From sequence record PZ229304.1: a stretch of DNA of 64,000 bases; one strand, 5' to 3'. The notes under the pieces were generated by a model that was given only the letters and a program-made list of their open reading frames with translations, was not told where the DNA came from and did not search any database. The number at the start of each line of letters is the position of its first letter. Position 1 is the stretch's first letter. Below are positions 11,483 through 12,240 of the stretch, piece by piece. The translations under genes were made by a program, and so were the position numbers. This DNA is from a phage.

Positions 11483-11965
11483 ATGGAACAACAAAAAGAT
11501 AATACTATTGCAAAATTTGCTCGTCCAGAAGTAATGGTTGAAATTGATCTGGATGAAGGACGCAGTGTAAAATTTAGAGTTCTCAAGTGGAGTCCAACTA
11601 AAGTTTTTGAAAGGATTCCAGAACTAGGTAGTGTACTAGCTGTTCCTATGACAATGTATAATACTGCTCTTATGTCAGCAGACGAAGATCTAGAAGCTCG
11701 TATTGCTATGGCGCTGATCCAATTATTCAGTGGTCTGGAAGAAAAAAACTTAGCCGCATTCTTACGTAAAATTTTAGATGAAGTTTACACAGAAGCAGGT
11801 CACAGTGTTTCCGATAATTTTGATGAATTGTTTTTTGCTCACCCAGAATTAGTTGTTGACTTAGCTGCAAAAGTTCTTGAGGTGAACTATGCCCCTTTTT
11901 TCAAACGAGGTTTCGGAAAACTGTTGACCCAATTTCAAGGAATAGAGACTCTAGCGAAGAGTTAA
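11483..11965 (+). CDS. tail assembly chaperone (0-frame product)
   Basis: 160-aa ORF between tube and tape measure genes; contains a slippery heptamer near its 3' end. Confidence 0.55.
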   Translation: MEQQKDNTIAKFARPEVMVEIDLDEGRSVKFRVLKWSPTKVFERIPELGSVLAVPMTMYNTALMSADEDLEARIAMALIQLFSGLEEKNLAAFLRKILDEVYTEAGHSVSDNFDELFFAHPELVVDLAAKVLEVNYAPFFKRGFGKLLTQFQGIETLAKS

Positions 11966-12240
11966 GTCCGGCAATTAAATCAGCAATTGAAATTGCCTCA
12001 CAAACCCTTAGCTTGACATGGTATGAAGTAATTCTTTGTAAGGTAATTAAGAATACCTCCGAAACCTTGTCCTCGTTAGATAATTACGGTGTAGATTATC
12101 TACTTAAAATTTATGAATATTTAACATTTGAAGACTATGTACAAGATCTTCACGTTAAAGATGCGGATATTAAACGTGGTCAACAGAGAACAATAAGAGA
12201 ACTGGATACGGCTATGAAAAAATTAATTCCAGATTCATAA
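11483..12240 (+). CDS. tail assembly chaperone, -1 frameshift fusion product (about 253 aa)
   Basis: The -1 frame is open from 11881 to 12240 and overlaps the 0-frame ORF. The slippery heptamer T_TTT_TTC at 11896..11902 lies in the overlap. Arrangement matches the conserved G/GT-type chaperone frameshift upstream of tape measure genes. Confidence 0.5.
11896..11902 (+). promoter_or_regulatory. programmed -1 ribosomal frameshift slippery site
   Basis: TTTTTTC in X_XXY_YYZ register relative to the 11483 frame. Confidence 0.5.

What the first reader, a model, noticed from the sequence alone, without database searches (positions are those of the whole stretch)
11483..12240. Programmed -1 frameshift joining two tail chaperone ORFs
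The 160-codon chaperone ORF overlaps a -1 frame that stays open to 12240. The overlap contains the slippery heptamer T_TTT_TTC (11896-11902) in the correct register. This reproduces the conserved G/GT-type arrangement upstream of tape measure genes and predicts a roughly 253-aa fusion protein made at low frequency.
Basis: partly seen in the sequence, partly recalled or inferred. Interest (0 to 1): 0.45.

Follow-up and report, generated by a model that had tools for sequence, protein, structure and literature searches.

The report
Tail chaperone frameshift in phi92-like phage
This is the standard "G/GT" trick of long-tailed phages, in which a few ribosomes slip back one base near the end of the tail-chaperone gene and make a longer fusion protein; it is almost certainly real here but is missing from every public annotation of this phage group that I checked.

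Summary
The window is a phi92-like E. coli myophage (99.6-100% identical). The 160-codon chaperone gene (11483-11965, Pfam Phage_TAC_15) lies between the tube gene and the tape-measure gene. A -1 frame open over 11881-12240 overlaps it. T_TTT_TTC (11896-11902) is in register, and an overlapping C_CCT_TTT (11893-11899) gives the same 252-aa fusion.

Comparative evidence supports the interpretation. In 29 distinct relatives (chaperone identity down to 22%), the third bases of the three heptamer codons never vary. Only one other degenerate codon in the gene shares this property. The -1 frame stays open 69-99 codons past the chaperone stop in all 57 loci analysed. No start codon is conserved in that frame. 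The -1 peptide is conserved from the heptamer onward. Two distant relatives carry other canonical heptamers (G_GGA_AAG, A_AAT_TTT).

No downstream RNA structure was found. A Shine-Dalgarno-like GAGGTGA lies 10 nt upstream but is not universal.

The mechanism is a well-known kind (lambda G/GT, P2 E/E+E'). It has been proposed for related Felix O1-like and Pakpunavirus phages. None of the 17 GenBank records inspected annotates it, and no paper I found reports it for this group. The fusion protein has not been observed. Verdict: supported, ordinary, low interest.

The parts
11472..11477 (+). Shine-Dalgarno sequence (AGAGGA region, GAGG core) of the chaperone gene G
   Evidence: the 20 nt upstream of ATG 11483 read atttttaaagagaggaaata. 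All neighbouring tail genes have comparable SD sequences.
11483..11965 (+). G: tail assembly chaperone ORF, 160 aa (phi92 gp132), the product of standard decoding
   Evidence: Pfam Phage_TAC_15 at 1.6e-22, 80.8 bits against a cut-off of 22. PHROG 3840 'tail assembly chaperone' at 4.4e-54. 100% identical to phi92 gp132.
11878..11880 (+). TGA in the -1 frame; the 5' limit of the -1 open frame
11879..11885 (+). Internal Shine-Dalgarno-like GAGGTGA, 10 nt upstream of T_TTT_TTC; candidate 5' stimulator (inferred)
   Evidence: -11.5 kcal/mol against the 16S 3' tail, which is the top 0.4% of all 9-mers in G. A comparable site at 9-12 nt spacing occurs in about 20 of 29 relatives. It is absent in KP13-16, phiTE, L038 and L047.
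11881..11962 (+). Overlap of the 0 frame and the -1 frame (82 nt)
11893..11899 (+). C_CCT_TTT, first in-register slippery heptamer (Stephanstirmvirinae clade only)
   Evidence: The C_CC.U_UU.U motif belongs to the efficient H_HH.U_UU.Y class in E. coli (PMC4066793).
11896..11902 (+). T_TTT_TTC, the conserved in-register slippery heptamer and proposed shift site
   Evidence: Present in register in 56 of the 57 G/T loci analysed, including Aeromonas phage 4L372D. Third bases of codons 138-140 are T/T/C in 29 of 29 distinct sequences.
11909..11915 (+). GGTTTCG, a dual-coding block: Gly-Phe-Gly in frame 0 and Arg-Phe-Arg in frame -1
   Evidence: GGT is invariant 29/29 and TTC is 26/29. rV5 GGTTTAGG changes F to L in frame 0 but keeps R-F-R in frame -1.
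11902..12240 (+). T segment: 112 codons read in the -1 frame after the slip, plus the stop. Together with 11483-11902 it encodes the 252-aa GT fusion
   Evidence: Residues 38-109 match PHROG 16039 (unknown function) at 3.2e-45. Conserved across 29 relatives, including the stretch upstream of any start codon.
12013..12240 (+). phi92 gp133 as annotated in GenBank (75 aa from TTG); judged to be a truncated annotation of the T segment
   Evidence: There is no SD upstream (ttgcctcacaaacccttagc). This TTG is the first ATG/GTG/TTG in the -1 frame, 44 codons after the frame opens. The aligned codon is an internal Leu of the conserved S-L-T-W motif.
12260..14239 (+). Tape measure protein gene (phi92 gp134), the presumed client of the chaperone
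   Evidence: PHROG 16051 'tail length tape measure protein', 1324 bits. gp134 is the TMP in the phi92 cryo-EM structure (PMC13450770).

Best explanation
A programmed -1 ribosomal frameshift of the G/GT type. Most ribosomes translate 11483-11965 and make the 160-aa chaperone G. A minority slip back one base, either with tRNA-Pro and tRNA-Phe on C_CCU_UUU or one cycle later with two tRNA-Phe on U_UUU_UUC. They then read CAA at 11902 and continue in the -1 frame to 12240. This gives a 252-aa GT protein with junction ...VLEVNYAPFF|QTRFRK.... By analogy with lambda and P2, the shared G part is inferred to coat the tape measure protein (12260-14239). The T part is inferred to recruit the tube protein (10960-11439) so that tube and sheath polymerise to the measured length. 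Neither product stays in the virion. What is shown here is the sequence architecture and its selective conservation. What is inferred is that slippage occurs, how efficient it is, any role for the upstream GAGGTGA, and the binding partners.
For: Gene order and identities.

Heptamer in register.

Synonymous invariance: codon 138 ends in T in 29/29 sequences although the residue is Pro (CCT) or Cys (TGT). F139 is TTT 29/29 and F140 is TTC 29/29. Of 143 well-populated codon columns, only W36, 138, 139, 140 and 143 have an invariant third base. Background synonymous codon identity is 0.40-0.46. The invariant control F117 is TTT 9 / TTC 20, and Phe codons elsewhere are TTC 122 / TTT 107.

Frames: the -1 frame runs 69-99 codons beyond the G stop in all 57 loci analysed (the 69 is L043, whose contig ends; complete ones run 73-99). 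The +1 frame runs no more than 20.

Initiators: the first ATG/GTG/TTG in the T frame wanders from T-codon 31 to 86 among relatives. The window's TTG 12013 has no SD, while all neighbouring genes do.

The T-frame peptide FF-x-x-RFR is conserved immediately after the heptamer, and rV5 shows compensation that favours the -1 frame.

Heptamer turnover: G_GGA_AAG in Rheinheimera phage Barba30A and A_AAT_TTT in Vibrio phage S4-7.

Both window heptamers fall in the H_HH.U_UU.Y class, among the most efficient in E. coli (PMC4066793).

All 5 coding differences between the window and phage muut fall on third positions of the frame proposed for each segment (frames by my arithmetic).

gp132 and gp133 are not among the virion components resolved in phi92 (PMC13450770).

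The same arrangement is accepted or proposed in relatives: Michonne (PMC4591319), and Vandenendeviridae and Andersonviridae (PMC12846349).
Against: No direct evidence for the fusion protein exists. None of the 45 database homologues is longer than 175 aa, so there is no natural in-frame fusion.

No 3' stimulatory structure was found. Fold z-scores were -1.4 to +1.5. RNAalifold gave 0 pairs in one clade and a weak hairpin without covariation in the other. Rfam gave nothing relevant.

The SD-like element is missing in several relatives and is encoded by the conserved residues L-E-V, so it may be incidental.

The 44 viral-contig loci were retrieved partly with a peptide pattern that contains FF. 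This biases the sample toward retaining Phe-Phe, though not toward the specific codons.

The sequences are phylogenetically related, so 29/29 does not represent 29 independent events.
Confidence: 0.88

Rival explanations
1. The downstream ORF is a separate gene (phi92 gp133), translated on its own from TTG 12013 or by reinitiation after the G stop. On this reading the heptamer is incidental.
For: This is how all 17 GenBank records inspected annotate it, or they omit it. TTG is a usable start, and the tube and TMP genes also start with TTG. Murica's annotators marked an RBS for their version.
Against: There is no SD before 12013. 44 open, conserved -1 codons lie upstream of it, including the conserved P-x-I-x-x-A...S-L-T-W segment. 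The first possible initiator falls anywhere from T-codon 31 to 86 in relatives, inside the conserved domain in several. This model does not explain the invariant synonymous positions of the heptamer or the heptamer turnover.
Confidence: 0.05
2. The frame change is made by RNA polymerase, not the ribosome. Transcriptional slippage on the T6 run adds one U to a fraction of mRNAs, and those mRNAs encode GT in a single frame.
For: The conserved element is a homopolymeric run (C4 T6). Conservation of run length cannot by itself tell the two mechanisms apart. The protein product would be the same or differ by one Phe.
Against: By my own knowledge, six U is short for efficient bacterial transcriptional slippage, which usually needs 9 or more. 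Distant relatives keep the arrangement with G_GGA_AAG and A_AAT_TTT, which are not slippage-prone runs but are canonical tandem-tRNA slip sites. U_UU.U_UU.C is an experimentally efficient ribosomal motif in E. coli (PMC4066793). P2 uses T_TTT_TTG, and its record annotates that site as a -1 translational frameshift.
Confidence: 0.05
3. The -1 open frame and the heptamer are chance features, or a decayed remnant, and no T product is made.
For: About 11% of overlaps this size would hold some heptamer by chance. Single-sequence AlphaFold2 of the T segment is poor, mean pLDDT 46.
Against: The T frame is open and conserved at the protein level in all 57 loci analysed, across at least five phage groups. 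Substitutions between close relatives fall on T-frame third positions.
Confidence: 0.02

Closest known systems
Phage P2 E / E+E' (myophage tail chaperone with -1 frameshift)
   Same: A contractile-tail phage with the chaperone pair lying between the tube gene and the tape-measure gene. [quoted passage not shown] The P2 record annotates the site as a -1 translational frameshift.
   Different: No detectable sequence similarity (hhalign probability 0.3%). P2's proteins are much smaller (E 91 aa, E+E' 142 aa, against 160 and 252). The P2 shift site is 25 nt before the stop, against 67 nt here, so G here has a 20-residue private C-terminus. The window has a second overlapping heptamer.
Phage lambda G / GT
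   Same: The same logic: a short chaperone plus a -1 frameshift extension, both needed at a set ratio (about 30:1). G binds the tape measure, T binds the major tail protein, and neither is in the virion (PMC5009743). No 3' structure was found in this window.
   Different: Lambda is a siphophage. Its heptamer is G_GGA_AAG, 22 nt before the G stop, and GT is 279 aa. No sequence similarity (hhalign probability 0.2%). G_GGA_AAG does appear in this family's distant relative Barba30A.
TAC-N / TAC-NC locus of Felix O1-like phages (Michonne, Moogle), Vandenendeviridae (Pakpunavirus Adele) and Andersonviridae
   Same: These are related sheath-tube-chaperone-TMP modules. A -1 frameshift has been noted or proposed for them, with an invariant GTTTTT motif at the 3' end of the short gene and a -1 frame that is always open (PMC4591319; PMC12846349). 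The Vequintavirinae relatives of this window read TGTTTTTTC, which contains that motif.
   Different: Those papers do not report the site for phi92, Stephanstirmvirinae or Vequintavirinae. In the phi92 clade the preceding codon is CCT rather than TGT. That removes the G of GTTTTT and creates the extra C_CCT_TTT heptamer.
E. coli dnaX -1 frameshift (SD-like element, heptamer, stem-loop)
   Same: A strong anti-SD-complementary sequence (GAGGTGA) lies 10 nt 5' of the heptamer. By my own knowledge this is the spacing of the dnaX stimulator.
   Different: The heptamer differs (A_AAA_AAG in dnaX). No 3' stem-loop was found here. The SD-like element is not conserved in all relatives. Its role here is a hypothesis only.

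Membership tests
G/GT-type tail assembly chaperone pair with programmed -1 frameshift (Xu, Hendrix & Duda 2004) | Two overlapping ORFs located between the major tail/tube gene and the tape measure gene | tested here: met
   Sheath 9495-10901 (DUF3383), tube 10960-11439 (KPP10_Orf10), G 11483-11965, -1 ORF to 12240, TMP 12260-14239. phi92 cryo-EM assigns gp130, gp131 and gp134 the same roles.
G/GT-type tail assembly chaperone pair with programmed -1 frameshift (Xu, Hendrix & Duda 2004) | The second ORF is in the -1 frame, overlaps the 3' end of the first, and has no translation start of its own | tested here: met
   82-nt overlap. The first ATG/GTG/TTG lies 44 codons into the frame and has no SD. 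The first possible start falls at T-codon 31-86 in relatives.
G/GT-type tail assembly chaperone pair with programmed -1 frameshift (Xu, Hendrix & Duda 2004) | A canonical X_XXY_YYZ slippery heptamer in register within the overlap, conserved among relatives | tested here: met
   T_TTT_TTC at 11896-11902. Present in 56 of the 57 G/T loci analysed, and replaced by other heptamers in 2 distant relatives. Synonymous positions are invariant 29/29.
G/GT-type tail assembly chaperone pair with programmed -1 frameshift (Xu, Hendrix & Duda 2004) | A fusion protein is actually made, at a low fixed ratio to the short product | not testable with these tools
   No proteomic or reporter data for this locus were found. 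Database proteins are all G-only.
G/GT-type tail assembly chaperone pair with programmed -1 frameshift (Xu, Hendrix & Duda 2004) | Neither product is a component of the mature virion | not testable with these tools
   Literature only: the phi92 cryo-EM study lists virion components and does not include gp132 or gp133. This is consistent but is not a dedicated test.
G/GT-type tail assembly chaperone pair with programmed -1 frameshift (Xu, Hendrix & Duda 2004) | The G part binds the tape measure protein; the T part binds the tube/major tail protein | not testable with these tools
   Inferred from lambda (PMC5009743). The T segment matches only families of unknown function, and its single-sequence model is unusable.
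Pfam PF21822 Phage_TAC_15 | Score above the curated gathering threshold | tested here: met
   80.8 bits against a cut-off of 22, residues 29-144, E = 1.6e-22. All 45 database homologues carry PF21822.
Lambda gpG or P2 gpE sequence families | Detectable sequence homology | tested here: not met
   hhalign probabilities 0.2-0.3%. The relation is functional and positional, not a demonstrated family membership.
dnaX-type stimulated frameshift site | SD-like element about 10 nt 5' of the heptamer | tested here: inconclusive
   Present in the window (GAGGTGA, 10 nt spacer, top 0.4% of the gene) and in about 20 of 29 relatives. Absent in several, and confounded by the conserved L-E-V codons.
dnaX-type stimulated frameshift site | Stable 3' stem-loop or pseudoknot 5-9 nt after the heptamer | tested here: not met
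   Fold z-scores were 0.02 and -1.39 for the window and -1.25 to +1.45 for relatives. There is no consensus structure and no covariation.

The most novel reading that the evidence does not exclude
The phi92 clade may have a compound, structure-free frameshift signal. It would consist of a decamer C_CCU_UUU_UUC that offers two consecutive chances to slip, plus a dnaX-like internal Shine-Dalgarno element 10 nt upstream. Together these could set an unusually high GT:G ratio for a myophage with a long tail. The evidence does not exclude this, but it also fits a plain low-efficiency single-site slip.
Probability: 0.2. Interest if true: 0.4.

Novelty: new member of a known kind. Interest (0 to 1): 0.22.

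Why it matters
The main value is to annotation. The tblastn searches found between 363 and 496 phage records that encode a chaperone of this family. Many of these are phi92-, phAPEC8-, rV5- and PVP-SE1-like phages that are being developed for therapy or biocontrol. In all 17 records inspected, the essential GT product is either split into a chaperone plus a truncated "hypothetical protein" or omitted. Correct annotation gives the true 252-aa protein. It also assigns a role to PHROG 16039 and its relatives, which are currently of unknown function. Anyone recoding or engineering these genomes should leave the CCCCTTTTTTC stretch intact. Biologically it adds one more deep lineage, with clear heptamer turnover, to the evidence that this recoding event is nearly universal in long-tailed phages.

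Tried and rejected
- **3' stimulatory RNA structure.** I folded eight segments from the window and relatives. Z-scores ranged from -1.4 to +1.5. RNAalifold on 13 Stephanstirmvirinae sequences gave 0 pairs. On 12 Vequintavirinae-type sequences it gave a -6 kcal/mol hairpin that includes the heptamer itself and shows no covariation. Rejected.
- **Rfam scan of 11400-12300.** Only two sub-threshold minus-strand hits, SraG and a CRISPR repeat. Judged chance.
- **Fused homologues.** A search with the 252-aa fusion returned 45 hits, all 151-175 aa and covering only the G part.
- **Solved structures.** Nothing below E = 0.17.
- **Families for the T segment.** Pfam and NCBIfam gave only a sub-threshold dodecin match.
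- **AlphaFold2 of the T segment alone.** Mean pLDDT 46, helical but unusable, so I ran no fold search.
- **Homology to lambda G or P2 E by hhalign.** None.
- **The 2-nt length difference in some near-identical genomes.** In phage muut the indel is at 11471 in the intergenic leader. It is not in the T run.
- **Using -1 frame extension past stop codons as a window-wide statistic.** This was uninformative, because neighbouring genes in the -1 frame inflate the distribution.
- **Literature searches.** I searched for phi92, rV5, PVP-SE1, Stephanstirmvirinae and Vequintavirinae together with frameshift terms. I found no report for this group.

Full report
**What the window is**

The segment 10900-12300 is 99.6-100% identical to Escherichia phage phi92 and about 55 other Justusliebigvirus genomes (Stephanstirmvirinae). 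It is 75-79% identical to Phapecoctavirus and related Klebsiella phages.

The local gene order on the + strand is as follows:

| Coordinates | Gene | Evidence |
|---|---|---|
| 9495-10901 | tail sheath | DUF3383 |
| 10960-11439 | tail tube | KPP10_Orf10 family |
| 11483-11965 | 160-aa chaperone | Pfam Phage_TAC_15, 1.6e-22; PHROG 3840 'tail assembly chaperone', 4.4e-54 |
| 12013-12240 | small ORF | annotated in phi92 as gp133 |
| 12260-14239 | tape measure protein | PHROG 16051 |

The phi92 RefSeq record names these gp130 to gp134 and annotates gp132 and gp133 as two separate CDS. The 2026 cryo-EM study of phi92 assigns gp130 as sheath, gp131 as tube and gp134 as tape measure. It does not find gp132 or gp133 in the virion (PMC13450770). 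That absence is what one expects of assembly chaperones.

**Checking the observation**

The -1 frame is open from 11881 to the stop ending at 12240, so it overlaps the chaperone ORF by 82 nt. The 0-frame codons are GCC CCT TTT TTC AAA. T_TTT_TTC at 11896-11902 is therefore an X_XXY_YYZ heptamer in the correct register.

C_CCT_TTT (11893-11899) is also in register and overlaps the first. Slippage at either site gives the same product...NYAPFF|QTRFRK.... That product is 140 + 112 = 252 aa, not 253.

About 11% of overlaps this size in this window would hold some in-register heptamer, and about 0.6% would hold T_TTT_TTN.

**Comparative test**

I collected 57 loci that encode a relative of the chaperone, counting the window itself. 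They came from annotated phage records and from IMG/VR contigs.

- In every locus the -1 frame spans the chaperone stop and runs 69-99 codons beyond it. The 69 is L043, whose contig ends; complete loci run 73-99. The +1 frame never runs more than 20 codons.
- T_TTT_TTC is present in register in the overlap in 56 of the 57 loci. These cover Stephanstirmvirinae, Vequintavirinae (rV5, PVP-SE1, phiTE and others) and Aeromonas phage 4L372D.
- Two distant relatives keep the two-frame arrangement but carry a different canonical heptamer in the same neighbourhood. Rheinheimera phage Barba30A has G_GGA_AAG, the lambda heptamer. Vibrio phage S4-7 has A_AAT_TTT.

Replacement of one slippery heptamer by another is hard to explain unless slippage itself is the selected function.

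**Selection acts on the nucleotides, not only on the protein**

I built a codon alignment of 29 distinct chaperone genes. Pairwise protein identity had a median of 33% and a minimum of 22%. Pairs that share an amino acid use the same codon only 40-46% of the time across most of the gene.

- At codons 138-140 that figure is 100%.
- Codon 138 is Pro (CCT) in one clade and Cys (TGT) in the other, yet it ends in T in 29 of 29 sequences.
- F139 is TTT 29/29 and F140 is TTC 29/29.
- As a control, the equally invariant F117 is TTT 9 / TTC 20. Phe codons elsewhere in these genes are TTC 122 / TTT 107.
- Of 143 well-populated codon columns, only five have an invariant third base: W36 (a single-codon residue), 138, 139, 140 and 143.

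One caveat applies. Half of the peptide pattern used to fish the IMG/VR loci contains 'FF'. This biases the sample toward Phe-Phe but not toward particular codons. The GenBank loci were found by whole-protein tblastn and show the same result.

**The -1 frame is translated from the heptamer onward**

Immediately after the heptamer the -1 peptide reads FF-x-x-R-F-R. The R and F are invariant across the 29 sequences. The underlying GGTTTCG block codes in both frames, and GGT is invariant 29/29. In rV5 the block reads GGTTTAGG. That changes Phe to Leu in frame 0 but keeps Arg-Phe-Arg in frame -1.

Further downstream comes a variable Gly/Ser/Asp-rich linker, and then a conserved helical segment (P-x-I-x-x-A...S-L-T-W-Y/F...). 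Part of that segment lies upstream of the TTG at 12013. The TTG is the Leu of S-L-T-W.

The first ATG/GTG/TTG in this frame falls anywhere from T-codon 31 to 86 in different relatives, so no initiator is conserved. In the window the 20 nt before TTG 12013 have no Shine-Dalgarno sequence, whereas all eight neighbouring genes examined have one.

Between the window and phage muut, all five coding differences fall on third positions of the frame proposed for that segment.

**How it probably works**

Both heptamers belong to the H_HH.U_UU.Y class. A systematic study found this class among the most efficient -1 motifs in E. coli, and noted U_UU.U_UU.C in IS elements that use frameshifting (PMC4066793).

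I found no 3' stimulator:

- Fold energies do not differ from shuffled controls.
- There is no consensus structure or covariation.
- Rfam gave no relevant match.

The strongest anti-Shine-Dalgarno match in the whole chaperone gene is GAGGTGA at 11879-11885, 10 nt upstream of T_TTT_TTC. About 20 of 29 relatives have a comparable site at 9-12 nt. By my own knowledge this resembles the dnaX 5' stimulator. However, several relatives lack it and it is encoded by conserved L-E-V residues. I treat it as a hypothesis.

The functional model is taken from lambda, as reviewed in PMC5009743. In that model G and the G part of GT coat the tape measure, the T part recruits the tube protein, the ratio matters, and neither product is in the virion. 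None of this has been tested here.

Terminator-like hairpins at 11443-11462 and 14245-14268 bracket G-T-TMP. This suggests the three genes are expressed together at a lower level than sheath and tube.

**Rivals**

- **Separate initiation or reinitiation** is contradicted by the points above.
- **Transcriptional slippage on T6** cannot be excluded from sequence alone. It is unlikely because the run is short, and because relatives use heptamers that are not homopolymers.
- **A non-functional -1 frame** is excluded by its conservation.

**Comparison with known systems**

With the same script, lambda has G_GGA_AAG 22 nt before the G stop and a 279-aa GT. P2 has T_TTT_TTG 25 nt before the E stop and a 142-aa E+E', and its record annotates the site as a -1 translational frameshift.

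P2 is the closest experimentally established analogue. It is a myophage with a U6-type heptamer. There is no detectable sequence homology to either lambda G or P2 E.

Within the wider Felix O1 / rV5 / PAK_P1 tail-module lineage, a -1 frameshift was noted for Citrobacter phage Michonne (PMC4591319). In December 2025 it was argued for Vandenendeviridae and Andersonviridae on the basis of an invariant GTTTTT motif (PMC12846349). The Vequintavirinae relatives here read TGTTTTTTC, which contains that motif. The site is therefore probably homologous across these groups.

**Novelty**

I found no paper that reports the frameshift for phi92, Stephanstirmvirinae or Vequintavirinae. None of the 17 GenBank records I inspected annotates a joined CDS. 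Some omit the T ORF altogether, for example muut. The 45 protein-database homologues are all G-only.

**Verdict**

It is a new member of a well-known kind. Its value lies mainly in correcting annotation across several hundred genomes. Two minor mechanistic questions remain open: the tandem heptamers and the SD-like element. Interest is low (0.22).

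Noticed in passing
window 11443-11462 and 14245-14268; promoter-like site at 14278-14307: Terminator-like hairpins lie just after the tube gene and just after the tape-measure gene. The second is followed by a near-consensus sigma-70-like promoter (TTGACA-18-TAAAAT, 11 of 12 matches). G, T and TMP may therefore form an attenuated read-through unit, expressed below sheath and tube. Relatives annotate terminators at the same places (phAPEC8, FBKp34, Murica, rV5).
   Followed up: partly
L001 2047-2139 (about window 10446-10538, inside the sheath gene): The phi92 RefSeq record annotates a 'Hypothetical tRNA' inside the tail sheath coding sequence. ARAGORN finds no tRNA anywhere in window 9400-12400, so the feature looks spurious.
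   Followed up: yes
GenBank MG0656xx records: More than 20 records named 'Campylobacter phage', with host Campylobacter jejuni, are 99-100% identical over this locus to E. coli phi92-like, phAPEC8-like or rV5-like phages. The host labels look doubtful. They may reflect contaminating coliphages in those preparations.
   Followed up: no
window 11743-11749: A third in-register heptamer, A_AAA_AAC, lies inside the chaperone gene but upstream of where the -1 frame opens. A slip there would end quickly at a -1 stop. It is not conserved: phi1_175008 has A_AAA_AAT, and most relatives have none.
   Followed up: partly
window about 12460-12560 (TMP residues ~68-102): The tape measure protein has an N-terminal low-complexity Gly/Ser/Pro stretch (GGGNPPPIPPTGGSSGGGKGGSGRGGSGSSGG), followed by a highly charged Arg/Glu/Lys-rich segment. 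The cryo-EM paper reports the TMP N-terminus as unresolved.
   Followed up: no
L010 2246-3346 (phiTE); L057 2132-2770 (Barba30A): In some relatives extra genes sit between the T ORF and the tape-measure gene. phiTE has two ORFs there. Barba30A has an opposite-strand putative DNA-binding protein gene. Strict adjacency of GT and TMP is therefore not universal.
   Followed up: no
PV659873.1 Escherichia phage WPEC1 (hits H86, H185): This 161-kb Phapecoctavirus-like record gave 4 separate matching places for the 861-nt query, one joined from 2 pieces. The chaperone region may be duplicated or rearranged in that genome.
   Followed up: no
window 11440-11565, minus strand: A sub-threshold Rfam match to the sRNA SraG (36 bits against a gathering score of 50, E = 2.8e-4) overlaps the bidirectional terminator hairpin and the 5' end of G. 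It is probably driven by the hairpin.
   Followed up: no
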